The notes below the pieces were generated by a model, which was not told the DNA's origin, did no database searches, and was given only the letters and a program-made list of their open reading frames with translations. Shown piece after piece: positions 13,708 to 61,637 of a stretch of 64,000 nt of DNA (position 1 is the first letter of the stretch; the number at the start of each line of letters is the position of its first letter). This DNA is from Flectonema sp. DT1601 (lineage: Eukaryota), in assembly GCA_964019425.1 (NCBI GenBank), contig OZ025799.1, forward strand, positions 744,001 through 808,000, written 5' to 3'. The translations under genes were made by a program, and so were the position numbers.

Positions 13708-15180
13708 CTACTCTGATTTCTTTAATTCAGATTGAGGTCCATCGAACAGTAACTTAACAGCGAAGGGAATTGAAGCCATCGCTACCTTCTGAATAACTTG
13801 TTCAACTACTACATCAGAATCGTAGAACATAAATGAAACAGTCAGAAGGCGAATAATCTCAAAACAAAGACCGATGGTCCTGTAATTTTTGTCGTATGCG
13901 AGTCCATGAGCGAGAAGTGTTGTCCAAACAAGGAGAGCATGTCTCATACAGATGTCTGGAATTAGCACAGTCGTCACCATTGATGCGACAGCCAACTGAG
14001 TTTGAACAACTCCGTAGACGGCCATAAAGTAACTTTCAATTTCGTAACCTCGTAAACGAAGAACAGATGACTCTTTTGGCAGCTGACGAGGTCTGACACA
14101 TGAGTTCCATCCGGGACCTCTAATTGAGATTCCAACACTCCACCACTGCTTAACTAAATTAACCCATCCAAATGATTGATGAACAGATTCTGAAATAGTT
14201 GTTGGGAATGCTGAAGTTCCATAATAACATACTTCGTCTTCAAGTTCTACGACTTCATTCTTGTTATCAGATCCCAGAAATCCGCTATCATATCCTTCGT
14301 CTGCGAAGGTACCGAACATGATATCCCAAATCATAAAAACACCTCCAAAGTTCTTATGAACTCTTCTATCATGATGAATTCGATGGGCAGAAGGAGTGCC
14401 TATGATATATTCAAGAAATCCAAGACGTCTAATGTGACAAGTGTGAACCCAAAACTGATATAAGAAATCAAATTGCGAAACACTTAATTGAACCAGAGGA
14501 GGAATTCCAATAATCGCAGATGGTAAAAACCAAATCCAAGAAGTACATGCTTGCCACCATGACTGACGAAGAGCTGTTGATAAATTATAAGTATCGCTAC
14601 TATGATGAACATTATGACCTGACCATAAGAACGAGATTGTGTGCATTTGTCTGTGAGCCCAGTAGTATTGTAAATCAAACACAAACAGTGCGAACACGTA
14701 AAGAAGAATTGGATTCCAAGACTCATAGAAACCCTCAGGAACAATAAGTGTGGAAACTCGATTAAAGCAATAGGTGTAGGATGCATTTTGGATTACGTAA
14801 ATCTGTTTAGTTTGGATTTTTGTTTTCCTCCCGTTCCTCAGTGTATTTTATAAAGGTGAAAAATAAGAACGCTAACAAACCTTTAAGACCGGTCTCAAAG
14901 ATTGCTCTGTCAAACCAGAAGCAACATTACACCATGTTTCTAAATATGAGTACTGCGCAGCTTTGTGAGGAAATTTGCTTTTCCACGTGAGTCCCATCTC
15001 AAGCAATGTGAGCACGAGAAACATCGGAACACCAGCAGTAATGATCTGAGGTCCTCCTGTTGGTCCAGGAGGAAGAACATAGCATGCCACGTACAGAGTG
15101 AAGACATAGCTCACAATGACTACCAATAACAAGATAGTACTTGTGTTAGGAGGCTGGTTTTTAAATTTTATTTCCGTCAT
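13708..15180 (-). CDS. AGMO: Alkylglycerol monooxygenase-like fatty acid hydroxylase, copy 1 (exons 15180-14881, 14802-13708; 464 aa)
   Basis: His boxes YYWAHRQMH, GHNVHHSSDTYNLSTALRQS, YQFWVHT and PSAHRIHH. A phase-0 intron 14880-14803 (GTTTGT...CTAAACAG, 78 nt) joins two track ORFs in frame. Confidence 0.8.
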
Positions 15181-16268: not shown

Positions 16269-17743
16269 CTACTCTGATTTCTTTAATTCAGATTGAGGTC
16301 CATCGAACAGTAACTTAACAGCGAAGGGAATTGAAGCCATCGCTACCTTCTGAATAACTTGTTCAACTACTACATCAGAATCGTAGAACATAAATGAAAC
16401 AGTCAGAAGGCGAATAATCTCAAAACAAAGACCGATAGTCCTGTAGTTTCTGTCGTATGCGAGTCCATGAGCGAGAAGTGTTGTCCAAACAAGGAGAGCA
16501 TGTCTCATACAGATGTCTGGAATTAGCACAGTCGTCACCATTGATGCGACAGCTAACTGAGTTTGAACAACTCCGTAGACGGCCATAAAGTAACTTTCAA
16601 TTTCGTAACCTCGCATGCGAGGAGCAGATGACTCTTTTGGCAGCTGACGAGGTCTGACACATGAGTTCCATCCGGGACCTCTAATTGAGATTCCAACACT
16701 CCACCACTGCTTAACTAAATTAACCCATCCAAATGATTGATGAACAGATTCTGAAATAGTTGTTGGGAATGCTGAAGTTCCATAATAACATACTTCGTCT
16801 TCAAGTTCTACGACTTCATTCTTGTTATCAGATCCCAGAAATCCGCTATCATATCCTTCGTCTGCGAAGGTACCAAATATGATATCCCAGATAATAAAAA
16901 CACCTCCAAAGTTCTTATGAACTCTTCTATCATGATGGATTCGATGGGCAGAAGGAGTACTTATAATGTATTCAAGAAATCCAAGACGTCTAACGTGACA
17001 AGTGTGAACCCAAAACTGATATAAAATATCAAATTGCGAAACACTTAATTGAACCAGAGGAGGAATTCCAATAATCGCAGATGGTAAAAACCAAATCCAA
17101 GAAGTACATGCTTGCCACCATGACTGACGAAGAGCTGTTGATAAATTATAAGTATCGCTACTATGATGAACATTATGACCTGACCATAAGAACGAGATTG
17201 TGTGCATTTGTCTGTGAGCCCAGTAGTATTGTAAATCAAACACAAACAGTGCGAACACGTAAAGAAGAATTGGATTCCAAGACTCATAGAAACCCTCAGG
17301 AACAATAAGTGTGGAAACTTTATTGAAGAAATAGGTGTAGGCTGCATTTTGGATAACGTAAATCTGTTTGGTATGTTTTTTTTTTTTTTTCCCCCTCACT
17401 GTCAACAAAGCATTTTAGGCGAAAAATAAGAACGCTAACAAACCTTTAAGACCGGTCTCAAAGATTGCTCTGTCAAACCACAAGCAACATTACACCATGT
17501 TTCTAAATATGAGTACTGCGCAGCTTTGTGAGGAAATTTGCTTTTCCACGTGAGTCCCATCTCAAGCCACTGAAGTACGAGAAACATCGGAACACCAGCA
17601 GTAATGATTTGTGGAGCTCCTGTTGGTCCAGGAGGAAGAACAAAGCATGCCACGTACAGAGTGAAGACATAGCTCACAATAATTCCTAATAACAAGATAG
17701 TACTCGTATTAGGAGGCTGGTTTTTAAATTTTATTTCCGTCAT
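16269..17743 (-). CDS. AGMO: Alkylglycerol monooxygenase-like fatty acid hydroxylase, copy 2 (exons 17743-17444, 17363-16269; 464 aa)
   Basis: Near-identical paralog with an intron at the same position, 17443-17364 (GTTTGT...CAAACAG, 80 nt). Confidence 0.8.
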
Positions 17744-46025: not shown

Positions 46026-47825
46026 TTACTTTTTTTCAGGTTCCTCATCGTCCTCGAATATGAAGTCAGGAGTCTTCGGTTCCTCAAGACTGGATCTGAA
46101 CTTCTTCGGTCTCGATGACGGAACTTCAGTACCGGCTTCATCGTGAGCTTCCTTCTTCGCAGCCTTGAACTGGTCCTCAGTCACTCCCTTGCTCATGATA
46201 CCAGTTGAAGTCAGACTGTTAACCAAACCAGACTGGTAGTCAACAACAGCAGCACCAGACCACTTCTGGTGAGTCAGCGTCTCAACATCGTGCGTACGCT
46301 CCTCACGCTGGATACGCTCAACGTAAGCACGCATACCACGCTGGGCGTAGTCCTTCGTGAACGTGTCAACCATCAAAGCGTTCGAGTGGAAACCAGCGAG
46401 TGTGCAGAACTGCCAAACGAATCCGAAGCGCCCAATGTCACGAGTGAAGTTCGCCATCTCATCGTCACTCAATCCAGCGACATCCCAGTTGAATGAAGGC
46501 GAAAGGTTGTATGCGAGGAATTGCTTTGGGAACTCAGCGTGGATTCCGGCAGCGAACTGGCTCGCCTGCTTCACGTTCGGTGTGTCGGTCTCCATCCAAA
46601 GCAAGTCAGCGTGAGGAGCAAAAGCCTTAGCACGCTGAATGCAGAAGTCCATTCCAGACAAAACACGGTAGTATCCCTCCCGAGTACGAGGCTTGTACCA
46701 TGACCAGTACAATTCCGCTCCAAGGTCACTTGCCAATTCACGTGATTCTACGTGCGACAACTGCTTGTAGTTGTCATCCCACACCTTCAGCATCTCCTCG
46801 ATACTCTTGTCACGCTTTGGCAAGTTCTTCAATTCCTCAGTCACCGCTTCACCAAAAGTCATGATGTTCGCCTGCTCTCCCCACTTGGTCTGTGCCTCCA
46901 TCATCTGCTCAGGTGATGCCTGGCTCTTCTCAAGGTCACGCAACATGTCCACGAGGTTCGGGATTTCCTTGTTTCTCGTTCCCATGATGAAAGGGTGGTC
47001 ACGTGGGTCGATGTTGTTGTCGAGGAAATTAGCAGACTCCGCATCAGTTCTCGCAACAACAAGGGTCTCAGTTCCCATCACATCGCATTGCAGACGAGCA
47101 GCCTTCAGACGGTCAACGTGTTCCTGGGTGGAAACCAAAACCTTTCCTCCCATGTGACCACACTTCTTAGTTCCAGCCTTCTGATCCTCCAAGTGAACTC
47201 CAGCAGCTCCAGCCTCTACGAAAAGCTTCACCAACTTCATCAAAGCAGAGATCCCACCGTGTCCAGTGTCTCCGTCAGCAATGATTGGAGGGAAGAAGTC
47301 GACTGGTGGAGTCGCAAGACGCTCTTCCTCAGTCATGTTCGAACGCTCAAGAGCCTGCTTGCGGTTGTGGAACATCAGAGCACGGAACAACTGATCAGCC
47401 TTGTTTGGCACGGTGTCCATCGGGTAATCAGCAAGATCAGGACCCGGCTCGTTGGTCGTCGAGCAAGTCGACGATGATTGCCAACCACTCACGTAGATGG
47501 TCTCCAAGTACTTCGCCATCTGAGTAACTTGAACAGGGTCGGTACATCCAAAGGTCCACGAGGCCTTGCTCGTGTCCCAGTTGTTTTGGAACAACTTCCA
47601 TGCTTTCTTAGCAGACTCGTTGGCAAGATGGTATCTCTTGTGAGTCTCAGGGAACGTTCCACGAAGCTTCGCAACATCAGCTCCAGTGTAACCTCTGTTG
47701 ATGGTGGCGAATCTCTCGCTTCCGAACCACTCCTGAAGCTTTGCAGCGTCCTCAGCCATCGCCAAACCCTCCGGGTCTTTACCGAAGCTGTGAATGGCCC
47801 TGCGGAGTGTGTTGTTGCGCATCAT
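46026..47825 (-). CDS. ICL: Isocitrate lyase copy 1 (599 aa, distinct C-terminus EEPEKK)
   Basis: KKCGHMGGKVLV, IIADGDTGHGG, ARTDAE, AYNLSPSFNW and WQFCTLAGFH, with the eukaryote-type insertion. Confidence 0.96.
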   Translation of the reverse strand: MMRNNTLRRAIHSFGKDPEGLAMAEDAAKLQEWFGSERFATINRGYTGADVAKLRGTFPETHKRYHLANESAKKAWKLFQNNWDTSKASWTFGCTDPVQVTQMAKYLETIYVSGWQSSSTCSTTNEPGPDLADYPMDTVPNKADQLFRALMFHNRKQALERSNMTEEERLATPPVDFFPPIIADGDTGHGGISALMKLVKLFVEAGAAGVHLEDQKAGTKKCGHMGGKVLVSTQEHVDRLKAARLQCDVMGTETLVVARTDAESANFLDNNIDPRDHPFIMGTRNKEIPNLVDMLRDLEKSQASPEQMMEAQTKWGEQANIMTFGEAVTEELKNLPKRDKSIEEMLKVWDDNYKQLSHVESRELASDLGAELYWSWYKPRTREGYYRVLSGMDFCIQRAKAFAPHADLLWMETDTPNVKQASQFAAGIHAEFPKQFLAYNLSPSFNWDVAGLSDDEMANFTRDIGRFGFVWQFCTLAGFHSNALMVDTFTKDYAQRGMRAYVERIQREERTHDVETLTHQKWSGAAVVDYQSGLVNSLTSTGIMSKGVTEDQFKAAKKEAHDEAGTEVPSSRPKKFRSSLEEPKTPDFIFEDDEEPEKK

Positions 47826-48534
47826 TTTTAAAATATTTAAAACTGAGTCGGGAGTGAGGAGAACTTCATTAACAACAATCGTCAATCACACAAATAAAAA
47901 AAGTCAGACATGACCGAAGTGGTCAAAAGGGCAGGAGTCAAAGAGGATATCATACAATGCGAACAAGAAAACAACAACAAAACAAACACGCGCAGGCATT
48001 CGCAGATTGAATGATCAAAATAAAAGTGAGAGGCAAATTCAATAAAAATATTTCGACGGAGAGTCAAGCAGCTAAAGTGCTAGATGACAATAAGAATAAA
48101 AAGAGAGGAGCATAAAATTCAGTAGTTTCGAGCCTTTAACAACACTTGCTTTAACAAAACAGTAAAATTTACTCAACAGGCACACCAAAACTACTAACCG
48201 CACGTTAAATGTGTGTCAAAAGAAATGACACAAAAAAAGAACAAAAGTGAACGAAAATCATTTTGCTATGTAAACAAAAGTTCCTTCAAAATAGTTGCAA
48301 TAGAACAAACGGCATTGATTAACAACAAATCAAACATTAACCACACAATACACAGTATTCGATATGTTAACAAATAACAGCGCATGACATGGTTGTATCT
48401 CAAATACTATTTAATGACCAAATATTGGAAGGAATCTGAACCGGTTCAGTAAACTAAAAGTTTGCCGTCCCCGTTTGGAAAATATAAACACTCGCTTGAA
48501 ACACATTTTAATATAAAACAATTTAACAATTTCT

Positions 48535-50334
48535 CTACTTCTTCTCAGCAGTCTCATCGTCCTCGAATATGAAGTCAGGAGTCTTCGGTTCCTCAAGACT
48601 GGATCTGAACTTCTTCGGTCTCGATGACGGAACTTCAGTACCGGCTTCATCGTGAGCTTCCTTCTTCGCAGCCTTGAACTGGTCCTCAGTCACTCCCTTG
48701 CTCATGATACCAGTTGAAGTCAGACTGTTAACCAAACCAGACTGGTAGTCAACAACAGCAGCACCAGACCACTTCTGGTGAGTCAGCGTCTCAACATCGT
48801 GCGTACGCTCCTCACGCTGGATACGCTCAACGTAAGCACGCATACCACGCTGGGCGTAGTCCTTCGTGAACGTGTCAACCATCAAAGCGTTCGAGTGGAA
48901 ACCAGCGAGTGTGCAGAACTGCCAAACGAATCCGAAGCGCCCAATGTCACGAGTGAAGTTCGCCATCTCGTCGTCACTCAATCCAGCGACATCCCAGTTG
49001 AATGAAGGCGAAAGGTTGTATGCGAGGAATTGCTTTGGGAACTCAGCGTGGATTCCGGCAGCGAACTGGCTCGCCTGCTTCACGTTCGGTGTGTCGGTCT
49101 CCATCCAAAGCAAGTCAGCGTGAGGAGCAAAAGCCTTAGCACGCTGAATGCAGAAGTCCATTCCAGACAAAACACGGTAGTATCCCTCCCGAGTACGAGG
49201 CTTGTACCATGACCAGTACAATTCCGCTCCAAGGTCCTTAGCCAACTCACGTGACTCCATGTGTGACAACTGCTTGTAGTTGTCATCCCACACCTTCAGC
49301 ATCTCCTCGATACTCTTGTCACGCTTTGGCAAGTTCCTCAATTCCTCAGTCACCGCCTCACCGAAAGTCATGATGTTTGCCTGCTCTCCCCACTTGGTCT
49401 GTGCCTCCATCATCTGCTCAGGTGATGCCTGGCTCTTCTCAAGGTCACGCAACATGTCTACGAGGTTCGGGATTTCCTTGTTTCTCGTTCCCATGATGAA
49501 AGGGTGGTCACGTGGGTCGATGTTGTTGTCAAGGAAATTAGCAGACTCCGCATCAGTTCTCGCAACAACAAGGGTCTCAGTTCCCATCACATCGCATTGC
49601 AGACGAGCAGCCTTCAGACGGTCAACGTGTTCCTGGGTGGAAACCAAAACCTTTCCTCCCATGTGACCACACTTCTTAGTTCCAGCCTTCTGATCCTCCA
49701 AGTGAACTCCAGCAGCTCCAGCCTCTACGAAGAGCTTCACCAACTTCATCAAAGCAGAGATCCCACCGTGTCCAGTGTCTCCGTCAGCAATGATTGGAGG
49801 GAAGAAGTCGACTGGTGGAGTCGCAAGACGCTCTTCCTCAGTCATGTTCGAACGCTCAAGAGCCTGCTTGCGGTTGTGGAACATCAGAGCACGGAACAAC
49901 TGATCAGCCTTGTTTGGCACGGTGTCCATCGGGTAATCAGCAAGATCAGGACCCGGCTCGTTGGTCGTCGAGCAAGTCGACGATGATTGCCAACCACTCA
50001 CGTAGATGGTCTCCAAGTACTTCGCCATCTGAGTAACTTGAACAGGGTCGGTACATCCAAAGGTCCACGAGGCCTTGCTCGTGTCCCAGTTGTTTTGGAA
50101 CAACTTCCATGCTTTCTTAGCAGACTCGTTGGCAAGATGGTATCTCTTGTGAGTCTCAGGGAACGTTCCACGAAGCTTCGCAACATCAGCTCCAGTGTAA
50201 CCTCTGTTGATGGTGGCGAATCTCTCGCTTCCGAACCACTCCTGAAGCTTTGCAGCGTCCTCAGCCATCGCCAAACCCTCCGGATCTTTACCGAAGCTGT
50301 GAATGGCCCTGCGGAGTGTGTTGTTGCGCATCAT
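48535..50334 (-). CDS. ICL: Isocitrate lyase copy 2
   Basis: Same motifs, near-identical to the other copies. Confidence 0.96.
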   Translation of the reverse strand: MMRNNTLRRAIHSFGKDPEGLAMAEDAAKLQEWFGSERFATINRGYTGADVAKLRGTFPETHKRYHLANESAKKAWKLFQNNWDTSKASWTFGCTDPVQVTQMAKYLETIYVSGWQSSSTCSTTNEPGPDLADYPMDTVPNKADQLFRALMFHNRKQALERSNMTEEERLATPPVDFFPPIIADGDTGHGGISALMKLVKLFVEAGAAGVHLEDQKAGTKKCGHMGGKVLVSTQEHVDRLKAARLQCDVMGTETLVVARTDAESANFLDNNIDPRDHPFIMGTRNKEIPNLVDMLRDLEKSQASPEQMMEAQTKWGEQANIMTFGEAVTEELRNLPKRDKSIEEMLKVWDDNYKQLSHMESRELAKDLGAELYWSWYKPRTREGYYRVLSGMDFCIQRAKAFAPHADLLWMETDTPNVKQASQFAAGIHAEFPKQFLAYNLSPSFNWDVAGLSDDEMANFTRDIGRFGFVWQFCTLAGFHSNALMVDTFTKDYAQRGMRAYVERIQREERTHDVETLTHQKWSGAAVVDYQSGLVNSLTSTGIMSKGVTEDQFKAAKKEAHDEAGTEVPSSRPKKFRSSLEEPKTPDFIFEDDETAEKK

Positions 50335-51123
50335 TTTTAAAATATTTAAAACTGAGTGAGGAGAACTTCATTAACAACAATCGTCAATCACACAAATACA
50401 AAAAATCAGACATGACCGAATGTCAAAAGGGCAGGAGTCAAAGAGGATATCATACAATGCGAACAAGAAAACAACAACAAAACAAACACGCGCAGGCATT
50501 CGCAGATTGAATGATCAAAATAAAAGTGAGAGGCAAATTCAATAAAAATATTTCGACGGAGAGTCAAGCAGCTAAGTTTCTGGATGACAATAAGAATAAA
50601 AAGAGAGGAAAATATAAATCAGTAGTTTTGAGCCTTTAACAACACTTGCTTTAACAAAACAGACGCATAAATACGAAATTCAGGCAAACAACTAGCTTAT
50701 ATAAAATGAAACAACTTCAAGCAACTACAAAGATGAGTCTATTGCAAGCAAACATTAAATGTCTGACACGAACCCTTTACAATAGACATGAGTTGCCAAT
50801 CGATGGCGATGGATTTTTTTAAAGTAAAAATTGAAACAAACTCCGATGACGAACTTTTTAAAACACATTATCAAAAAGTCGGTAGTTAATCAGAAGTTAA
50901 ATAAGTTGCATGACAAACATATGAAGTCAAGCAAGGAATTAACAAGTAAAGCAGTACTTTACTTATATTAAGTCTTTGGAATAACATAAACACACGCATC
51001 AAATATATTCGACACAAACAATTCAATCTTTCATTTCTTTTTTTTTCATTCTTGTAACAGTGCACTCGCATGTTTCTTTCACAATAACAAAATAACAACC
51101 CAGCCTTAGTTGCGGTCTGATTT

Positions 51124-52923
51124 CTACTTCTTCTCAGCAGTCTCATCGTCCTCGAATATGAAGTCAGGAGTCTTCGGTTCCTCAAGACTGGATCTGAACT
51201 TCTTCGGTCTCGATGACGGAACTTCAGTACCGGCTTCATCGTGAGCTTCCTTCTTCGCAGCCTTGAACTGGTCCTCAGTCACTCCCTTGCTCATGATACC
51301 AGTTGAAGTCAGACTGTTAACCAAACCTGACTGGTAGTCAACAACAGCAGCACCAGACCACTTCTGGTGAGTCAGCGTCTCAACATCGTGTGTACGTTCC
51401 TCACGCTGGATACGCTCAACGTAAGCACGCATACCACGCTGGGCGTAGTCCTTCGTGAACGTGTCAACCATCAAAGCGTTCGAGTGGAAACCAGCGAGTG
51501 TGCAGAACTGCCAAACGAATCCAAAGCGCCCAATGTCACGAGTGAAGTTCGCCATCTCGTCGTCACTCAATCCAGCGACATCCCAGTTGAATGAAGGCGA
51601 AAGGTTGTATGCGAGGAATTGCTTTGGGAACTCAGCGTGGATTCCGGCAGCGAACTGGCTCGCCTGCTTCACGTTCGGTGTGTCGGTCTCCATCCAAAGC
51701 AAGTCAGCGTGAGGAGCAAAAGCCTTAGCACGCTGAATGCAGAAGTCCATTCCAGACAAAACACGGTAGTATCCCTCCCGAGTACGAGGCTTGTACCATG
51801 ACCAGTACAATTCTGCTCCAAGGTCCTTAGCCAACTCACGTGACTCCATGTGTGACAACTGCTTGTAGTTGTCATCCCACACCTTCAGCATCTCCTCGAT
51901 ACTCTTGTCACGCTTTGGCAAGTTCCTCAATTCCTCAGTCACCGCCTCACCGAAAGTCATGATGTTTGCCTGCTCTCCCCACTTGGTCTGTGCCTCCATC
52001 ATCTGCTCAGGTGATGCCTGGCTCTTCTCAAGGTCACGCAACATGTCTACGAGGTTCGGGATTTCCTTGTTTCTCGTTCCCATGATGAAAGGGTGGTCAC
52101 GTGGGTCGATGTTGTTGTCAAGGAAATTAGCAGACTCCGCATCAGTTCTCGCAACAACAAGGGTCTCAGTTCCCATCACATCGCATTGCAGACGAGCAGC
52201 CTTCAGACGGTCAACGTGTTCCTGGGTGGAAACCAAAACCTTTCCTCCCATGTGACCACACTTCTTAGTTCCAGCCTTCTGATCCTCCAAGTGAACTCCA
52301 GCAGCTCCAGCCTCTACGAAGAGCTTCACCAACTTCATCAAAGCAGAGATCCCACCGTGTCCAGTGTCTCCGTCAGCAATGATTGGAGGGAAGAAGTCGA
52401 CTGGTGGAGTCGCAAGACGCTCTTCCTCAGTCATGTTCGAACGCTCAAGAGCCTGCTTGCGGTTGTGGAACATCAGAGCACGGAACAACTGATCAGCCTT
52501 GTTTGGCACGGTGTCCATCGGGTAATCAGCAAGATCAGGACCCGGCTCGTTGGTCGTCGAGCAAGTCGACGATGATTGCCAACCACTCACGTAGATGGTC
52601 TCCAAGTACTTCGCCATCTGAGTAACTTGAACAGGGTCGGTACATCCAAAGGTCCACGAGGCCTTGCTCGTGTCCCAGTTGTTTTGGAACAACTTCCATG
52701 CTTTCTTAGCAGACTCGTTGGCAAGATGGTATCTCTTGTGAGTCTCAGGGAACGTTCCACGAAGCTTCGCAACATCAGCTCCAGTGTAACCTCTGTTGAT
52801 GGTGGCGAATCTCTCGCTTCCGAACCACTCCTGAAGCTTCGCAGCGTCCTCAGCCATCGCCAAACCCTCCGGGTCTTTACCGAAGCTGTGAATGGCCCTG
52901 CGGAGTGTGTTGTTGCGCATCAT
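51124..52923 (-). CDS. ICL: Isocitrate lyase copy 3
   Basis: Same motifs; start MMRNNT at 52923. Confidence 0.96.
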   Translation of the reverse strand: MMRNNTLRRAIHSFGKDPEGLAMAEDAAKLQEWFGSERFATINRGYTGADVAKLRGTFPETHKRYHLANESAKKAWKLFQNNWDTSKASWTFGCTDPVQVTQMAKYLETIYVSGWQSSSTCSTTNEPGPDLADYPMDTVPNKADQLFRALMFHNRKQALERSNMTEEERLATPPVDFFPPIIADGDTGHGGISALMKLVKLFVEAGAAGVHLEDQKAGTKKCGHMGGKVLVSTQEHVDRLKAARLQCDVMGTETLVVARTDAESANFLDNNIDPRDHPFIMGTRNKEIPNLVDMLRDLEKSQASPEQMMEAQTKWGEQANIMTFGEAVTEELRNLPKRDKSIEEMLKVWDDNYKQLSHMESRELAKDLGAELYWSWYKPRTREGYYRVLSGMDFCIQRAKAFAPHADLLWMETDTPNVKQASQFAAGIHAEFPKQFLAYNLSPSFNWDVAGLSDDEMANFTRDIGRFGFVWQFCTLAGFHSNALMVDTFTKDYAQRGMRAYVERIQREERTHDVETLTHQKWSGAAVVDYQSGLVNSLTSTGIMSKGVTEDQFKAAKKEAHDEAGTEVPSSRPKKFRSSLEEPKTPDFIFEDDETAEKK

Positions 52924-53619
52924 TTTTGAAAGATTACGGTAAATACAAACTGAATAGATGGAACTAAATGTAAACCTTCTCAAATACTTAGGTACTCAAA
53001 CAATACAACCATGAAGATTATCAAAAGTGAAATTATTTAAGGCGAACAGGGGAACACAAATAAAAACAGGAATACCACGCGCAAGTATTCGCAACTTAAA
53101 TAACGTCAACAGCAGCAAAAAGAGAGGAAGAGCTTGTTGTAAGCAATGAGAAAAGGGAGGAAAACAAGAAAACAAAAACGCCAATAACATAACCCATGCT
53201 AAGGTAAACATGCGAATGAAAACATCCTGAAGGCAACATACTATTTTTTTCTTCTTTCGAGTATGACCACAGGCTCTGTATTACGGAATAGTATCGCTTT
53301 AATTATCTAATTAATTTTGAACAAACACGACATCAATAATTGATGGACAGTCGTCGTTGTGTTATTCAGTTGACTTTTTTATGAAACAGTTAGAATTTCT
53401 TTTTTTTAAAATCCTTAATAAAACATTAGAAACTTTAGTTGACATAAAATCAAATAACGTCCTGTTGTGTCATTAAGGTGAATACGACATTAGTATAGAA
53501 TGGGTTTTTTCTTTTTTTTTTTTTCTTCTTTTTTTTTGTAACAGTGCACTCGCATGTTTCATTCACAATAACAAAATAATTAGCCAGCCTTATTGGTGGT
53601 TTCATTGATGAGTTTATTT

Positions 53620-55419
53620 CTACTTCTTCTCAGCAGTCTCATCGTCCTCGAATATGAAGTCAGGAGTCTTCGGTTCCTCAAGACTGGATCTGAACTTCTT
53701 CGGTCTCGATGACGGAACTTCAGTACCGGCTTCATCGTGAGCTTCCTTCTTCGCAGCCTTGAACTGGTCCTCAGTCACTCCCTTGCTCATGATACCAGTT
53801 GAAGTCAGACTGTTAACCAAACCAGACTGGTAGTCAACAACAGCAGCACCAGACCACTTCTGGTGAGTCAGCGTCTCAACATCGTGCGTACGCTCCTCAC
53901 GCTGGATACGCTCAACGTAAGCACGCATACCACGCTGGGCGTAGTCCTTCGTGAACGTGTCAACCATCAAAGCGTTCGAGTGGAAACCAGCGAGTGTGCA
54001 GAACTGCCAAACGAATCCAAAGCGCCCAATGTCACGAGTGAAGTTCGCCATCTCGTCGTCACTCAATCCAGCGACATCCCAGTTGAATGAAGGCGAAAGG
54101 TTGTATGCGAGGAACTGCTTTGGGAACTCAGCGTGGATTCCGGCAGCGAACTGGCTCGCCTGCTTCACGTTCGGTGTGTCGGTCTCCATCCAAAGCAAGT
54201 CAGCGTGAGGAGCAAAAGCCTTAGCACGCTGAATGCAGAAGTCCATTCCAGACAAAACACGGTAGTATCCCTCCCGAGTACGAGGCTTGTACCATGACCA
54301 GTACAATTCTGCTCCAAGGTCCTTAGCCAACTCACGTGATTCCATGTGTGACAACTGCTTGTAGTTGTCATCCCACACCTTCAGCATCTCCTCGATACTC
54401 TTGTCACGCTTTGGCAAGTTCTTCAATTCCTCAGTCACCGCCTCACCGAAAGTCATGATGTTCGCCTGCTCTCCCCACTTGGTCTGTGCCTCCATCATCT
54501 GCTCAGGTGATGCCTGGCTCTTCTCAAGGTCACGCAACATGTCTACGAGGTTCGGGATCTCCTTGTTTCTCGTTCCCATGATGAAAGGGTGGTCACGTGG
54601 GTCGATGTTGTTGTCAAGGAAATTAGCAGACTCCGCATCAGTTCTCGCAACAACAAGGGTCTCAGTTCCCATCACATCGCATTGCAGACGAGCAGCCTTC
54701 AGACGGTCAACGTGTTCCTGGGTGGAAACCAAAACCTTTCCTCCCATGTGACCACACTTCTTAGTTCCAGCCTTCTGATCCTCCAAGTGAACTCCAGCAG
54801 CTCCAGCCTCTACGAAGAGCTTCACCAACTTCATCAAAGCAGAGATCCCACCGTGTCCAGTGTCTCCGTCAGCAATGATTGGAGGGAAGAAGTCGACTGG
54901 TGGGGTCGCAAGACGCTCTTCCTCAGTCATGTTCGAACGCTCAAGAGCCTGCTTGCGGTTGTGGAACATCAGAGCACGGAACAACTGATCAGCCTTGTTT
55001 GGCACGGTGTCCATCGGGTAATCAGCAAGATCAGGACCCGGCTCGTTGGTCGTCGAGCAAGTCGACGATGATTGCCAACCACTCACGTAGATGGTCTCCA
55101 AGTACTTCGCCATCTGAGTAACTTGAACAGGGTCAGTACATCCAAAGGTCCACGAGGCCTTGCTCGTGTCCCAGTTGTTTTGGAACAACTTCCATGCTTT
55201 CTTAGCAGACTCGTTGGCAAGATGGTATCTCTTGTGAGTCTCAGGGAACGTTCCACGAAGCTTCGCAACATCAGCTCCAGTGTAACCTCTGTTGATGGTG
55301 GCGAATCTCTCGCTTCCGAACCACTCCTGAAGCTTTGCAGCGTCCTCAGCCATCGCCAAACCCTCCGGATCTTTACCGAAGCTGTGAATGGCCCTGCGGA
55401 GTGTGTTGTTGCGCATCAT
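53620..55419 (-). CDS. ICL: Isocitrate lyase copy 4
   Basis: Same motifs. Confidence 0.96.
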   Translation of the reverse strand: MMRNNTLRRAIHSFGKDPEGLAMAEDAAKLQEWFGSERFATINRGYTGADVAKLRGTFPETHKRYHLANESAKKAWKLFQNNWDTSKASWTFGCTDPVQVTQMAKYLETIYVSGWQSSSTCSTTNEPGPDLADYPMDTVPNKADQLFRALMFHNRKQALERSNMTEEERLATPPVDFFPPIIADGDTGHGGISALMKLVKLFVEAGAAGVHLEDQKAGTKKCGHMGGKVLVSTQEHVDRLKAARLQCDVMGTETLVVARTDAESANFLDNNIDPRDHPFIMGTRNKEIPNLVDMLRDLEKSQASPEQMMEAQTKWGEQANIMTFGEAVTEELKNLPKRDKSIEEMLKVWDDNYKQLSHMESRELAKDLGAELYWSWYKPRTREGYYRVLSGMDFCIQRAKAFAPHADLLWMETDTPNVKQASQFAAGIHAEFPKQFLAYNLSPSFNWDVAGLSDDEMANFTRDIGRFGFVWQFCTLAGFHSNALMVDTFTKDYAQRGMRAYVERIQREERTHDVETLTHQKWSGAAVVDYQSGLVNSLTSTGIMSKGVTEDQFKAAKKEAHDEAGTEVPSSRPKKFRSSLEEPKTPDFIFEDDETAEKK

Positions 55420-56121
55420 TTTTAAAATATTTAAAACTGAGTGAGGAGAACTTCATTAACAACAATCGTCAATCACACAAATAAAAAAAGTCAGACATGA
55501 CCGAAGATGTCAAAAGGGCAGGAGTCAAAGAGGATATCATACAATGCGAACAAGAAAACAACAACAAAACAAACACGCGCAGGCATTCGCAGATTGAATG
55601 ATCAAAATAAAAGTGAGAGGCAAATTCAATAAAAATATTTCGACGGAGAGTCAAGCAGCTAAAGTGCTAGATGACAATAAGAATAAAAAGAGAGGAGCAT
55701 AAAATTCAGTAGTTTCGAGCCTTTAACAACACTTGCTTTAACAAAACAGTAAAATTTACTCAACAGGCACACCAAAACTACTAACCGCACGTTAAATGTG
55801 TGTCAAAATAAATGACATAAAAAAAGAACAAAAGTGAACGAAAATCATTTTGCTATGTAAACAAAAGTTCCTTCAAAATAGTTGCAATAGAACAAACGGC
55901 ATTGATTAACAACAAATCAAACATTAACCACACAATACACAGTATTCGATATGTTAACAAATAACAGCGCATGACATGGTTGTATCTCAAATACTATTTA
56001 ATGACCAAATATTGGAAGGAATCTGAACCGGTTCAGTAAACTAAAAGTTTGCCGTCCCCGTTTGGAAAATATAAACACTCGCTTGAAACACATTTCAATA
56101 TAAAACAATTTAACAATTTCT

Positions 56122-57921
56122 CTACTTCTTCTCAGCAGTCTCATCGTCCTCGAATATGAAGTCAGGAGTCTTCGGTTCCTCAAGACTGGATCTGAACTTC
56201 TTCGGTCTCGATGACGGAACTTCAGTACCGGCTTCATCGTGAGCTTCCTTCTTCGCAGCCTTGAACTGGTCCTCAGTCACTCCCTTGCTCATGATACCAG
56301 TTGAAGTCAGACTGTTAACCAAACCAGACTGGTAGTCAACAACAGCAGCACCAGACCACTTCTGGTGAGTCAGCGTCTCAACATCGTGTGTACGTTCCTC
56401 ACGCTGGATACGCTCAACGTAAGCACGCATACCACGCTGGGCGTAGTCCTTCGTGAACGTGTCAACCATCAAAGCGTTCGAGTGGAAACCAGCGAGTGTG
56501 CAGAACTGCCAAACGAATCCGAAGCGCCCAATGTCACGAGTGAAGTTCGCCATCTCGTCGTCACTCAATCCAGCGACATCCCAGTTGAATGAAGGCGAAA
56601 GGTTGTATGCGAGGAATTGCTTTGGGAACTCAGCGTGGATTCCGGCAGCGAACTGGCTCGCCTGCTTCACGTTCGGTGTGTCGGTCTCCATCCAAAGCAA
56701 GTCAGCGTGAGGAGCAAAAGCCTTAGCACGCTGAATGCAGAAGTCCATTCCAGACAAAACACGGTAGTATCCCTCCCGAGTACGAGGCTTGTACCATGAC
56801 CAGTACAATTCCGCTCCAAGGTCCTTAGCCAACTCACGTGACTCCATGTGTGACAACTGCTTGTAGTTGTCATCCCACACCTTCAGCATCTCCTCGATAC
56901 TCTTGTCACGCTTTGGCAAGTTCTTCAATTCCTCAGTCACCGCCTCACCGAAAGTCATGATGTTCGCCTGCTCTCCCCACTTGGTCTGTGCCTCCATCAT
57001 CTGCTCAGGTGATGCCTGGCTCTTCTCAAGGTCACGCAACATGTCCACGAGGTTCGGGATCTCCTTGTTTCTCGTTCCCATGATGAAAGGGTGGTCACGT
57101 GGGTCGATGTTGTTGTCAAGGAAATTAGCAGACTCCGCATCAGTTCTCGCAACAACAAGGGTCTCAGTTCCCATCACATCGCATTGCAGACGAGCAGCCT
57201 TCAGACGGTCAACGTGTTCCTGGGTGGAAACCAAAACCTTTCCTCCCATGTGACCACACTTCTTAGTTCCAGCCTTCTGATCCTCCAAGTGAACTCCAGC
57301 AGCTCCAGCCTCTACGAAGAGCTTCACCAACTTCATCAAAGCAGAGATCCCACCGTGTCCAGTGTCTCCGTCAGCAATGATTGGAGGGAAGAAGTCGACA
57401 GGTGGAGTCGCAAGACGCTCTTCCTCAGTCATGTTCGAACGCTCAAGAGCCTGCTTGCGGTTGTGGAACATCAGAGCACGGAACAACTGATCAGCCTTGT
57501 TTGGCACGGTGTCCATCGGGTAATCAGCAAGATCAGGACCCGGCTCGTTGGTCGTCGAGCAAGTCGACGATGATTGCCAACCACTCACGTAGATGGTCTC
57601 CAAGTACTTCGCCATCTGAGTAACTTGAACAGGGTCAGTACATCCAAAGGTCCACGAGGCCTTGCTCGTGTCCCAGTTGTTTTGGAACAACTTCCATGCT
57701 TTCTTAGCAGACTCGTTGGCAAGATGGTATCTCTTGTGAGTCTCAGGGAACGTTCCACGAAGCTTCGCAACATCAGCTCCAGTGTAACCTCTGTTGATGG
57801 TGGCGAATCTCTCGCTTCCGAACCACTCCTGAAGCTTTGCAGCGTCCTCAGCCATCGCCAAACCCTCCGGATCTTTACCGAAGCTGTGAATGGCCCTGCG
57901 GAGTGTGTTGTTGCGCATCAT
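56122..57921 (-). CDS. ICL: Isocitrate lyase copy 5
   Basis: Same motifs; start MMRNNT at 57921. Confidence 0.96.
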   Translation of the reverse strand: MMRNNTLRRAIHSFGKDPEGLAMAEDAAKLQEWFGSERFATINRGYTGADVAKLRGTFPETHKRYHLANESAKKAWKLFQNNWDTSKASWTFGCTDPVQVTQMAKYLETIYVSGWQSSSTCSTTNEPGPDLADYPMDTVPNKADQLFRALMFHNRKQALERSNMTEEERLATPPVDFFPPIIADGDTGHGGISALMKLVKLFVEAGAAGVHLEDQKAGTKKCGHMGGKVLVSTQEHVDRLKAARLQCDVMGTETLVVARTDAESANFLDNNIDPRDHPFIMGTRNKEIPNLVDMLRDLEKSQASPEQMMEAQTKWGEQANIMTFGEAVTEELKNLPKRDKSIEEMLKVWDDNYKQLSHMESRELAKDLGAELYWSWYKPRTREGYYRVLSGMDFCIQRAKAFAPHADLLWMETDTPNVKQASQFAAGIHAEFPKQFLAYNLSPSFNWDVAGLSDDEMANFTRDIGRFGFVWQFCTLAGFHSNALMVDTFTKDYAQRGMRAYVERIQREERTHDVETLTHQKWSGAAVVDYQSGLVNSLTSTGIMSKGVTEDQFKAAKKEAHDEAGTEVPSSRPKKFRSSLEEPKTPDFIFEDDETAEKK

Positions 57922-58581
57922 TTTTATAAGATTACGAAGTATATGTAAACTGATTTGGGTGAGAATAGAGAAACTGACATCCTTCAAAACTACGAATACC
58001 CAAACACAATCAAAGTAAAAGGAAACATCTGTTAAAGTTAATCATATTTAAGATGTAGTGTGAGATCCTGACAGTGAGGATAATAATAATACAGCAGCTC
58101 TACTTCTCAGGTATTGACAACACACTAATCAACTGTGCGACTACAGTACTACGTTCCGTGTAAAGAAGAACAACAAAAAGAACTGCCCGAACCTTTTTTA
58201 ATTGAACAACATTGTCCCAACAAATGAAAGCGATCGATAAAAAGAAGCACAGAGCCACCACAAGAGAGAAGATTGAAAAGAGAACAAATAAAAAATAGCA
58301 AAGCCGCAGCAGTATTGTCGTCTAACAACTAATATTGCGCCGAGCGATAAAGAGAATAAAATAAAGTGCCTCTCCAAGCAAGGAAGCAGACAAGTTACCT
58401 AGAAAACAGTGGGTGAAGGCCCACACACCTCTAGCAACTTTTTTTCGAAGCACACATGATTTCTTATAACCAAATTTATATGAATAAATAAAATACAAAA
58501 AAAAATAGAATTCCAGCAGACAAAGAAAAGTAAAAGAACTGTACTAGCATGTGGTTTCTTCCCGGCATCTTCGCTTCGGCG

Positions 58582-58959: not shown

Positions 58960-61637
58960 TTATTCAGGCTTCTTTTGCTCAAATTGTGGTTTTGCGTTTC
59001 CCGGTCTTCTGTGAATCTGTATTTTTTTTTTTTTTTTTCTTTTTTAGAAAGAGGTAGACGACGTTATTAGATTTTTTAATGAAATACCTTGTTTGCTTTC
59101 CAGTCAAGACAACGCTGAACATCAATTAAATCGACTCCCATAATGACACAACGAACGAAAGCGAAATAAATCACATCAGCTGCTTCAAAGGCGCAGTTGT
59201 CAGCGTTGGGTGATTCAATAAGTTCAGTTGCCTCTTCGAGTAGCTTTGCTTTTAGTAAAGCCGGATCTTCAAATAGTCTCTTGGTGTAGGACCCAGCAGG
59301 AGCAGCAGCCTTTCGCTGTTGTAATGTTTGAATTAATTTATCAAATCCGGTAGCAGGTCCAAAGCAACTCTGCTGGTGACGATGACAGAAACCACTTCCT
59401 GTTTGCTTTACTGTAAACATTAAGCAATCTCTATCACAATCGAGTGTGATGCTAACAAGTTGTTGAACGTCACCTGAGGACTCACCTTTGACCCAAAGTC
59501 CTCTAGTTCTCGACCAGTAGATCCCACGTTTTCTTCTTATCGCTTCTTGAATTGATTTGATATTTGAGTAACACATTCCCAACGCTCTACCATTGTTGTT
59601 ATCGACAACAACTGTTGGATATAATCCGTCAACTCTGTCTGTTTTAATGATGGCGGTTACCGCAGCAGATAGAGGAAGCTTTCCTTTTTCAATAACACCG
59701 TCACTCTCGACACCAGTGAGGATATTTGACGGGATTAAACACTCAATACCCATCTCATCGAGGACTGCTATTTCTTGTTCATTATTAATAGGGCCAGCCA
59801 CTGTTAAGCTTGCCTTTGATGCCTTGCAAACAGCAACCAGTTTCATGACAAGAGCTAAGTCAAGTCCAGGAGACTGCGGTTCAACAAACGTAACTTGAAA
59901 ATGACCAGCAGTGTCACATAAATCTGATATGACTTTTGAAATTGGATTTCCTTGAGAAGTTTTCCAAACTCCAACTTCGTTTTCATTTCCTGAATGAAAT
60001 ATAGCATCAATCGCCACGATAACTCTCTCTCTCGGTAGAGCTGATAAGAAGTCTCTGGTTGCCATGCTTCCGATTATCACCTTTGATGCTCCGTCGTTTA
60101 AAATATTTTGAGCATCTTCAATCTTTTTAATACCACCACCAAATCTGATTTGATGCTTTTTAAACAAACTCTTCATAATCTCTCTAGTTCCAGAGTTCAG
60201 ACCAAGAGATGCGTCGACGTCGATGACAGCGACTTCACCAACAACTGCGTGATCCTCAATCGATTTAATGACGTTCTTACCATCAACAAGTCCATTAGTA
60301 ACAGCAAGACTAGGAATGACGCAGTGAATGTTTGTTGAGCTGTACTGCATTCCAGATGGGTTAACTCTGGTGTTGATTCTTGATGTAAGCAGACTTCCTT
60401 TTACCTTAGCAGGAGGTGCCCCACATTCCAACGGAAATCTAACGAAGTTCGATGCTGGGCATTGTTCAGCGAGTGAAATCATTGTTGACACTTTAATAGT
60501 TTGCGTTGCGATCCAAATTTCATTGTGAGTCTCATGCAATGTTGAGATACCCTCAGATATACTTCCTGCTAGAGAATCGTCTGTGCAGGATATGTTTAGC
60601 ATAATCCCACAATTCGAAGGGGTCGAACCTATCAGTTGTTTAACGTTTTGAGGTGAAATGTCATCTTTATCTCCAACCTTCCATCCTGAAGAAGTGATTA
60701 AGACATCAATAAGACAAAGAACTGATCGGCTATCAAGTTCTGTTATGATTTTTTGAAAATTGTCTGTTGATTGATTTATTATAACCCTTGAGACTCCTAA
60801 TTCTAATTGTTTCTCAGCGGATTCTAAACTGTATGCTTGAGTCAAAACCGGAATAGCACATTTAGCAGAGCAAGCTTCAGCAATTTGATTTATGTTATCC
60901 TGAGAAGATAAGTCAGTTCCCAAGATAACAATGTGATCAGAACCACATGCTTCCCATGCAGATGGAAGATCACAAGAAGCAATATTCGCTGCGGGGATGC
61001 TATCAGCTGTTCCTACAGAAGCTCCTTCTTGTGAAACCGAAACCAAACTGCTAACATGAACCGTTTTATCCTTCTTAACACTAACATCTGGTAGCGGTGA
61101 GTACTTCAACCATCTGCTTAGGACTGCTCTTCCAAAAGAAGAGGAAAGTTCAGGTTGGAATTGAAGAGCACAAACAGGTCCCTTTTCAAGACTTCCAATA
61201 ATATTCTTATTATCAGCAGTCGTCCATGTTGCAGACCATCCGAGTGGGATTGCTCTAAGACATTCCTTCGTGGGAGATGTGAAATAAGCATCTCCAGACT
61301 TCACAAATCTGCATCGAGTGTCTGCTTCGATTGAAAGCCATTTGTGAGAATGTTGTTGTTCGTTGATTGCGACTGTCTCAACTCCAATGTTTTGAATAAT
61401 ATCCCGAAGGGTTCCCATTCCAAGAATTAAAGTTGGTTTACTTCCTTCTTCAATTCGTTTCTTTATAGCATCTCTAGTCTCTGAATTAGTAACCTTCTTG
61501 GCAACAATCAGATGAGAGATTTCACTCAAATTGGAACTGTCTTCTATTTCAACAACCTCCTCCGCTCCAGCTAGTTTCAAACCAGAAGTTAGCCCGGTGG
61601 TTAGCGTCCCAATGACGCCAACTTCTCTGCTGGTCAT
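58960..61637 (-). CDS. Histidine biosynthesis multidomain fusion: HisH-like + HisF-like + HisA-like + HisI + HisE (exons 61637-59088, 59016-58960; 868 aa)
   Basis: GATase-like CALQFQPELS. Barrel motifs GSDHIVIL / GVSRVIIN and IRFGGGIK / GASKVIIGS / VAIDA. HisI YWSRTRGLWVKGESSG...LDCDRDCL...FCH...SCF. HisE GSYTKRLF...KLLEEATEL...EAADVIYF. Intron 59087-59017 restores a His4-like end K-IHRRPGNAKPQFEQKKPE*. Confidence 0.85.

What the first reader, a model, noticed from the sequence alone, without database searches (positions are those of the whole stretch)
58960..61637. Five-module histidine-pathway fusion (HisH-HisF-HisA-HisI-HisE) with three apparently dead modules
Seen: one ORF carries a GATase fold, two TIM-barrel-like regions, then intact HisI (DCD...CH...C) and HisE motifs. 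The GATase lacks the nucleophile (ILGMG vs GICLGMQ) and the triad His (QFQPE vs QFHPE). The HisF-like barrel lacks IPCLD/GGG, and the HisA-like barrel has VIPSLAV where IIPAIDL carries the catalytic Asp. Known: fungi have HIS7 (H-F) and HIS4 (I-E-D) separately, and some bacteria have barrel-HisIE fusions. Inference: an architecture I do not know as described, where pseudo-enzyme modules may act as a metabolon scaffold or metabolite sensor for active HisIE.
Basis: partly seen in the sequence, partly recalled or inferred. Interest (0 to 1): 0.88.

Follow-up and report, generated by a model that had tools for sequence, protein, structure and literature searches.

The report
Histidine enzyme dragging three dead enzymes
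This marine protist gene joins five histidine-pathway modules in one protein; the last two keep their catalytic residues and the first three have lost theirs, so it is likely a working two-step enzyme still carrying the folded remains of an older multi-enzyme fusion, remains that probably survive in yeast His4 too.

Summary
Observation confirmed. One minus-strand gene (61637-58960, with a 71-nt intron near the 3' end; 868 aa) encodes HisH-HisF-HisA-HisI-HisE. Profile comparison and AlphaFold support all five folds. HisI and HisE keep their catalytic residues. HisH, HisF and HisA have lost theirs, here and in all four diplonemid-clade homologs. The architecture is not new: it is the first five modules of the published Acanthamoeba heptafunctional protein (35% identity over 822 columns). 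The same order occurs in bacterial hisH-hisF-hisAIE-hisD operons. New, as far as ten literature searches show, are: three modules dead but retained; a published 'trifunctional His4' label that is wrong for the Sulcionema ortholog, which has no HisD; and the unexplained N-terminus of fungal His4 matching this HisA barrel (hhalign 95-96%). Sulcionema has separate IGP-synthase and HisA genes listed. Best reading: an active HisIE whose dead modules are kept for structural reasons. The HisH-HisF hinge pair is invariant while the active-site faces are erased. A sensor role is possible, since HisA keeps part of its distal phosphate site, but it is untested. The scan's earlier notes held nothing on this.

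The parts
61098..61637 (-). HisH* pseudo-glutaminase (aa 1-180). Oxyanion strand PGVG lost, nucleophile Cys to G73, triad His to Q161. E163, hinge W100 and Y118 kept.
   Evidence: (hhalign 99.8%)
60363..61070 (-). HisF* pseudo-cyclase barrel (aa 190-425). D11-equivalent, glycine phosphate loops and ammonia-gate residues lost. D234, P263, G281, K413 and hinge R424 invariant in 4 of 4 full-length homologs.
   Evidence: 85.6% HisF vs 2.2% HisA; Z 22.1
59643..60323 (-). HisA* pseudo-isomerase barrel (aa 439-665). D7-equivalent to A445, acid position to Q588 with a 2-residue deletion, proximal phosphate loops GG to GP and G to P636. Distal-phosphate motifs GGGIK (500-504), GS (523-524) and D544 kept.
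   Evidence: (Z 22.3)
59352..59642 (-). HisI phosphoribosyl-AMP cyclohydrolase with intact DCDRD (733-737), C751, H752, C758
   Evidence: PF01502 E 4.8e-25; 40 of 44 conserved positions kept
59088..59351 (-). HisE phosphoribosyl-ATP pyrophosphohydrolase with intact EExxE (801-805) and ExxD (818-821)
   Evidence: PF01503 E 1.4e-15; 23 of 28 conserved positions kept
59017..59087 (-). 71-nt GT-AG intron, phase 0 (inferred)
   Evidence: splicing restores the homologs' C-terminus
58960..59016 (-). Exon 2: 18 codons plus stop, carrying the RRPGNAK tail shared by this HisE family; no HisD follows
   Evidence: identical to the last 18 residues of P0002; no HisD or HisG hit in the window

Best explanation
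The protein is likely a working HisI/HisE enzyme (steps 2 and 3 of histidine synthesis) that carries three predicted-folded modules lacking catalytic residues, inferred to be relics of an Acanthamoeba-type multi-enzyme fusion and probably kept for structural reasons. Inferred history: (1) a bacterial hisH-hisF-hisAIE-hisD operon entered eukaryotes and fused; (2) in diplonemids separate IGP-synthase and HisA genes took over steps 4-5 and the HisD-HisG tail was lost; (3) the active-site faces of H, F and A decayed, while the fold and the inter-module contacts stayed under selection because the modules pack on each other and on HisI. Shown: domain order, residue losses, collinearity, conservation pattern. 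Inferred: HisIE activity, inactivity of H/F/A, the order of events, the reason for retention.
For: Collinear with Acanthamoeba P0013 (35% identity, 822 columns, E 4e-123). Conserved positions kept in P0001: HisF 25 of 106, HisH 19 of 54, HisA 51 of 94, HisI 40 of 44, HisE 23 of 28; intact P0013 keeps 102, 48, 87, 38 and 25. The same catalytic losses occur in all 5 diplonemid-clade proteins. The hinge pair hW123/fR249 (PMC9032424) maps to W100/R424 and is invariant in 5 of 5. S. specki lists separate HisA, IGP-synthase and HisG genes (PMC7052976 Table S3). 80 of 80 kept GTDB loci have A-I-E in one ORF and 77 have H and F just upstream. In the AIE tree, 25 eukaryote-type rows split from 18 bacterial rows (SH-aLRT 100). 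HisA decayed but stayed in front of HisI in other lineages too: P0028, P0048, P0006 and fungal His4.
Against: No activity or contact was measured. Model pTM is only 0.55, so inter-module packing is not shown. HisA* is 91% identical between P0001 and P0002, close to HisI (96%) and HisE (93%), and keeps a phosphate half-site, which a ligand role would explain equally well. P0005 has lost about half of HisF*, so H*F* may be dispensable. The separate diplonemid HisA and IGP-synthase proteins were not seen, only their table entries. In the HisIE-only tree the eukaryote clade is unstarred (93/85), includes one bacterium, and that bacterium is the weak sister of diplonemids (80/40). The 80 GTDB loci are the best of 576, chosen by similarity to the query, which favours this gene order.
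Confidence: 0.65

Rival explanations
1. HisA* is a ligand sensor. It binds ProFAR (the HisI product), AICAR or AMP through the retained distal-phosphate half-site and regulates HisIE allosterically.
For: R83 and S103 grip the distal phosphate in Salmonella HisA (PMC9088769). The equivalents K504/S524, the GGG loop and D544 are kept while both catalytic acids and the proximal phosphate loops are lost. HisA* has 91 of 227 positions invariant among four homologs, against 36 of 180 for H* and 39 of 236 for F*.
Against: The half-site is complete in only 3 of 5 diplonemid-clade proteins: P0004 lacks the S103 equivalent and P0005 lacks GGG. It is absent from the dead barrels of P0028, P0048 and P0006. 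Plant HisIE is inhibited by AMP without any barrel (PMC8102479).
Confidence: 0.18
2. The dead modules act as a scaffold that recruits the separate, active HisA and IGP-synthase enzymes into a metabolon.
For: A HisA-HisH-HisF metabolon has been suggested in bacteria (PMC8305728). A diplonemid-specific conserved stretch at 397-438 has 22 of 42 positions invariant.
Against: That stretch maps to HisF strand 8, helix 8 and the hinge strand, which normally face HisH inside the same protein. Most H* and F* positions are variable (17-20% invariant). No partner evidence was obtained.
Confidence: 0.07
3. H* and F* have no function and are being eroded slowly; only HisA*-HisIE is under selection.
For: H* and F* are 66% and 64% identical between P0001 and P0002 against 91-96% for the rest. 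P0005 has a large deletion in F*. Other eukaryote-type proteins begin at HisA (P0031-P0033, P0037).
Against: Both modules are full length in 4 of 4 complete homologs that are as little as 28-39% identical in these modules. The hinge pair and the C-terminal half of H* (24 of 83 invariant) are conserved.
Confidence: 0.08
4. One or more N-terminal modules retain cryptic or new catalytic activity.
For: P0003 and P0004 have Glu at the HisA D7 position, and E586 is invariant in the four full-length proteins.
Against: That position is Ala in the other three, and the acid loop and proximal phosphate loops are disrupted in all five. H* lacks Cys and His, and F* lacks nearly all active-site residues.
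Confidence: 0.02

Closest known systems
Acanthamoeba heptafunctional histidine protein, HisH-F-A-I-E-D-G, 1682 aa (PMC6029752; P0013); also Thecamonas trahens P0024
   Same: Identical order of the first five modules; 35% identity over 822 columns; same side of the AIE tree.
   Different: There all catalytic motifs are intact and HisD and HisG follow. Here H, F and A are dead and the protein ends after HisE.
Fungal His4 (N-terminal region-HisI-HisE-HisD; PMC1963479)
   Same: Related HisIE (47-51% identity in the best segment; same clade). Its N-terminal region matches this family's HisA barrel (hhalign 94.9-96.2%, versus 45.7% for HisF).
   Different: His4 has HisD, a far more decayed barrel and no H or F modules. 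The window protein and P0004 have no HisD.
Bacterial HisA-HisI-HisE fusion in hisG...hisH-hisF-hisAIE-hisD operons (Myxococcota, Phycisphaerae, Geminicoccaceae, Gemmatimonadales); such trifunctional proteins are mentioned in PMC8102479
   Same: Gene order equals the module order; best-segment identity 39-46%.
   Different: hisH and hisF are mostly separate genes there, and their catalytic residues are conserved.
Yeast His7 / bifunctional IGP synthase HisHF
   Same: Top Foldseek match of the diplonemid-only model; nearest ESM Atlas clusters for residues 1-430 are HisHF proteins (score 0.90, a lead only).
   Different: Cys-His-Glu triad, cyclase aspartate, phosphate loops and ammonia gate are lost.

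Membership tests
Acanthamoeba-type multifunctional His fusion | Module order H-F-A-I-E in one chain | tested here: met
Acanthamoeba-type multifunctional His fusion | C-terminal HisD and HisG | tested here: not met
   Stop codon after HisE; no HisD or HisG in the window or in P0002-P0004
Acanthamoeba-type multifunctional His fusion | Intact H, F and A catalytic residues | tested here: not met
Acanthamoeba-type multifunctional His fusion | Common descent of the AIE part | tested here: inconclusive
   Supported in the AIE tree (SH-aLRT 100, quick search, long diplonemid branch); only 93/85 with one bacterial intruder in the IE tree; no AU test run
HisIE (PF01502 + PF01503) | Both domains above Pfam cut-off with metal-binding Asp/Cys/His and Glu/Asp motifs | tested here: met
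HisIE (PF01502 + PF01503) | Converts PR-ATP to ProFAR | not testable with these tools
   needs assay or complementation
Trifunctional His4 | Histidinol dehydrogenase domain | tested here: not met
   No PF00815 in P0001-P0004, although PMC7052976 files the S. specki ortholog as His4
IGP synthase HisH (class I GATase) | Cys-His-Glu triad and PGVG oxyanion strand | tested here: not met
   G73, Q161, E163; PGVG deleted
IGP synthase HisF | (beta/alpha)8 barrel of HisF type | tested here: met
   Z 22.1, rmsd 3.1, 224 aligned to 1h5y; hhalign 85.6%
IGP synthase HisF | Catalytic D11/D130, phosphate loops, ammonia gate (T. maritima numbering, partly recalled) | tested here: not met
   D11 to S200; D130 position is Asp only in P0001; glycine loops and gate lost
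HisA ProFAR isomerase | Catalytic D7 and D176 (PMC9088769, PMC5850734) | tested here: not met
   A445 and Q588 with a loop deletion
HisA ProFAR isomerase | Distal-phosphate grip R83/S103 and D129 | tested here: met
   K504, S524, D544 in P0001; complete in 3 of 5 homologs

The most novel reading that the evidence does not exclude
Eukaryotes outside plants took their HisIE once, inside a bacterial hisH-hisF-hisAIE-hisD operon that fused into a mega-enzyme. It has since decayed independently in several lineages. The diplonemid protein is a fossil stage with three dead modules, and the long-unexplained N-terminus of fungal His4 is the last remnant of the same HisA barrel. The barrel outlives its catalysis because it became a structural or allosteric (ProFAR/AICAR-binding) subunit of HisI.
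Probability: 0.4. Interest if true: 0.72.

Novelty: new variant of a known kind. Interest (0 to 1): 0.56.

Why it matters
It is a clear natural case of a multi-enzyme fusion losing catalysis module by module while keeping its folds, with intact, partly dead and heavily decayed relatives all available for comparison. It gives a testable identity to the N-terminal region of yeast His4, called of unknown function in PMC1963479. It corrects the published view that the Sulcionema protein is a trifunctional His4: with no HisD in it, the last step of histidine synthesis has no verified gene in that table for S. specki or H. phaeocysticola. It also ties the eukaryotic fusion order to a living bacterial operon order.

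Tried and rejected
No whole genome is held, so separate HIS6, HIS7 and HisD genes could not be sought in this organism. No RNA holder was listed; this is no evidence on expression. The index-free search of protein representatives gave no result, so the range of dead-module homologs rests on three word-indexed searches. Cluster membership could not be looked up. No complex prediction was obtained, so whether HisA* contacts HisIE is open. The search for 'hisAIE' returned only unrelated papers and one search returned none. The main texts of two D. papillatum papers hold no 'histidine'; their supplements gave one unrelated HisF row. Rejected: a chance ORF or annotation artefact (four homologs, three of them transcript-derived); an end at 59076 (intron); module 2 being a second HisA (2.2% versus 85.6%); membership in His4 (no HisD). 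The oomycete N-terminus (P0012) did not match HisA (1.1%) or the fungal region (5.1%) as a single sequence, so oomycetes are not claimed. The first AlphaFold model was poor in HisI and part of HisH. Earlier scan notes: 0 findings held all the words, one unrelated note was shown, and there was no look-alike by sequence.

Full report
Observation. The window is AT-rich eukaryotic DNA. It holds an 853-codon ORF at 59076-61637 on the minus strand. A phase-0 GT-AG intron of 71 nt (59087-59017) leads to an 18-codon exon ending at 58960. Pfam sees HisI, HisE and one histidine barrel clearly, and GATase only at E 0.17.

Five modules. Profile comparison of the four full-length homologs with intact references gives HisH 99.8% over 171 columns for module 1, HisF 85.6% against HisA 2.2% for module 2, and HisA 99.95% for module 3. 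A model built from these four sequences alone (pLDDT 55) matched yeast His7 best and HisF barrels next. A model from a 16-row alignment that included intact enzymes (pLDDT 79.9, pTM 0.55) shows complete barrels at 189-425 and 436-665 (Z 22.1 and 22.3).

Relatives. The first search returned 12 proteins among 7,996 scored candidates. Three are full-length homologs with transcript-assembly names (78, 52 and 42% identity) and one (P0005) is a truncated genomic prediction. P0004 carries the gene id Sspe_Gene.39724, listed under Sulcionema specki in PMC7052976 Table S3. P0001-P0004 form one clade (100/100). I therefore read the window as a diplonemid; the species of P0002, P0003 and P0005 were not given. 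Single transcript-derived ORFs in three relatives argue against split mRNAs; the window's own RNA was not seen. The search among longer proteins returned 3 hits among 6,356 candidates, led by the Acanthamoeba 1682-aa protein. PMC6029752 describes it as a heptafunctional H-F-A-I-E-D-G enzyme. BLASTP aligns P0001 100-851 to its 128-914 at 35% identity. A search with that protein gave 41 hits among 7,997 scored. Fourteen of these have H-F-A-I-E in order with intact-looking modules, among them Thecamonas.

Dead versus live. Of positions at least 90% conserved in 78-83 intact references, P0001 keeps 25 of 106 in HisF, 19 of 54 in HisH, 51 of 94 in HisA, 40 of 44 in HisI and 23 of 28 in HisE (the C-terminal part of the HisF alignment was imperfect there and was redone). 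HisH has lost the PGVG strand, the nucleophile (G73) and the triad His (Q161). HisF has lost the D11 equivalent, both glycine loops and the ammonia gate (numbering anchored, the rest recalled). HisA has lost both catalytic acids, D7 and D176 in Salmonella numbering (PMC9088769, PMC5850734), and the proximal phosphate loops. The losses are shared by all five diplonemid-clade proteins. HisI and HisE motifs are intact.

What is kept. The HisH-HisF hinge is formed by hW123 and fR249 (PMC9032424). These map to W100 and R424, invariant in 5 of 5. The other invariant HisF positions (D234, P263, G281, K413) lie, by my recall of the barrel, on the HisH-facing side. HisA* is the most conserved dead module: 91% identity between P0001 and P0002 against 64-66% for H* and F*, and 91 of 227 invariant positions among four homologs. 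It keeps the distal-phosphate residues in 3 of 5 homologs. That is the only support for a sensor role.

Why the loss was tolerated. PMC7052976 Table S3 lists separate ProFAR isomerase, IGP synthase and ATP-PRT genes for all three diplonemids studied. I saw the ids, not the sequences. The same paper calls the S. specki protein a trifunctional His4 with histidinol dehydrogenase, but P0004 has no such domain.

Origin. In GTDB, 576 of 600 matched stretches encoded a relative and the best 80 were kept. All 80 have A-I-E in one ORF, 77 have H and F directly upstream, and 48 have D downstream within the fetched DNA. They come mainly from Myxococcota, Planctomycetota, Geminicoccaceae and Gemmatimonadota. 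The selection favours this order. An AIE tree of 43 rows (P0005, P0006, P0048 and fungi left out; every second of 34 bacterial rows used) separates 25 eukaryote-type rows from 18 bacterial ones (SH-aLRT 100). A HisIE-only tree of 50 rows rooted on two distant HisIE puts 30 eukaryote-type rows, fungi included, plus one bacterium in a 93/85 clade inside the bacterial AIE family. For unnamed metagenomic proteins 'eukaryote-type' is my inference from architecture. PMC8102479 already notes bacterial A-I-E proteins and a Myxococcales-like origin of His4.

Repeated decay. P0028 has intact H and F but a dead A. P0048 and P0006 have a decayed A before HisI. P0048 groups with intact A-I-E-D proteins (94/79), which suggests an independent loss. 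The N-terminal region of fungal His4, reported as having no detectable homology in PMC1963479, matches this HisA at 94.9-96.2%. In this sample the barrel loses catalysis several times yet stays in front of HisI, which suggests a structural role. That contact was not tested.

Mechanism. Most likely (0.65) the protein performs HisE then HisI chemistry, and H*, F* and A* are folded relics held by packing. Rivals are ligand sensing by A* (0.18), neutral erosion of H*F* (0.08), a metabolon scaffold (0.07) and cryptic activity (0.02).

Novelty. The module order is published for Acanthamoeba. Ten searches of the held library found no description of the dead-module diplonemid form or of His4's N-terminus as HisA. 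Subscription papers and database structural annotations were not searched, so either may be known there. What I read: PMC6029752, parts 1-3 of 6 and passages; PMC7052976, passages, supplement passages and the first part of Table S3; passages only of PMC1963479, PMC9088769, PMC5850734, PMC9032424, PMC8102479, PMC8305728 and PMC7284861; term searches of the text and supplements of PMC8611851 and PMC10161547. Verdict: new variant of a known kind; interest 0.56.

Noticed in passing
window 46026-57987 (-): Five tandem, near-identical isocitrate lyase genes at about 2.5 kb spacing (PF00463 E 1e-206), in a region of higher GC (0.44-0.50 versus about 0.37). Could be a real array or partly an assembly effect.
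   Followed up: no
window 13708-14646 and 16269-17207 (-): Two near-identical 312-aa ORFs with histidine-box motifs, resembling a fatty-acid hydroxylase or alkylglycerol monooxygenase (label recalled, not scanned).
   Followed up: no
P0007-P0011, P0046, P0047, P0049, P0050, N-terminal 200-240 aa: The fungal His4 N-terminal region matches the HisA of the AIE family (hhalign 94.9-96.2% over 67-125 columns; controls HisH, HisD, HisG under 1%, HisF 45.7%).
   Followed up: partly
L031:3257-10208 (+): A eukaryote-looking metagenome contig with adjacent hisB, hisHF, hisAIE and hisDG ORFs about 180-420 nt apart: a eukaryotic his cluster in operon order, or exons of one long fusion.
   Followed up: partly
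P0038, P0039, P0041: Separate five-module fusions in the E. coli-like order H-A-F-I-E with intact motifs, apparently bacterial and only distantly related: a convergent fusion.
   Followed up: no
P0019, P0021-P0023; P0031-P0033, P0037, P0048: Further variants of the fusion: H-F-A-I-E plus HisB (PF00475), and A-I-E-D plus aminotransferase and HAD domains.
   Followed up: partly
P0004 (Sspe_Gene.39724): Listed as histidinol dehydrogenase in PMC7052976 Table S3 but has no HisD domain; H. phaeocysticola has no entry in that row. Diplonemid HisD is unaccounted for.
   Followed up: partly
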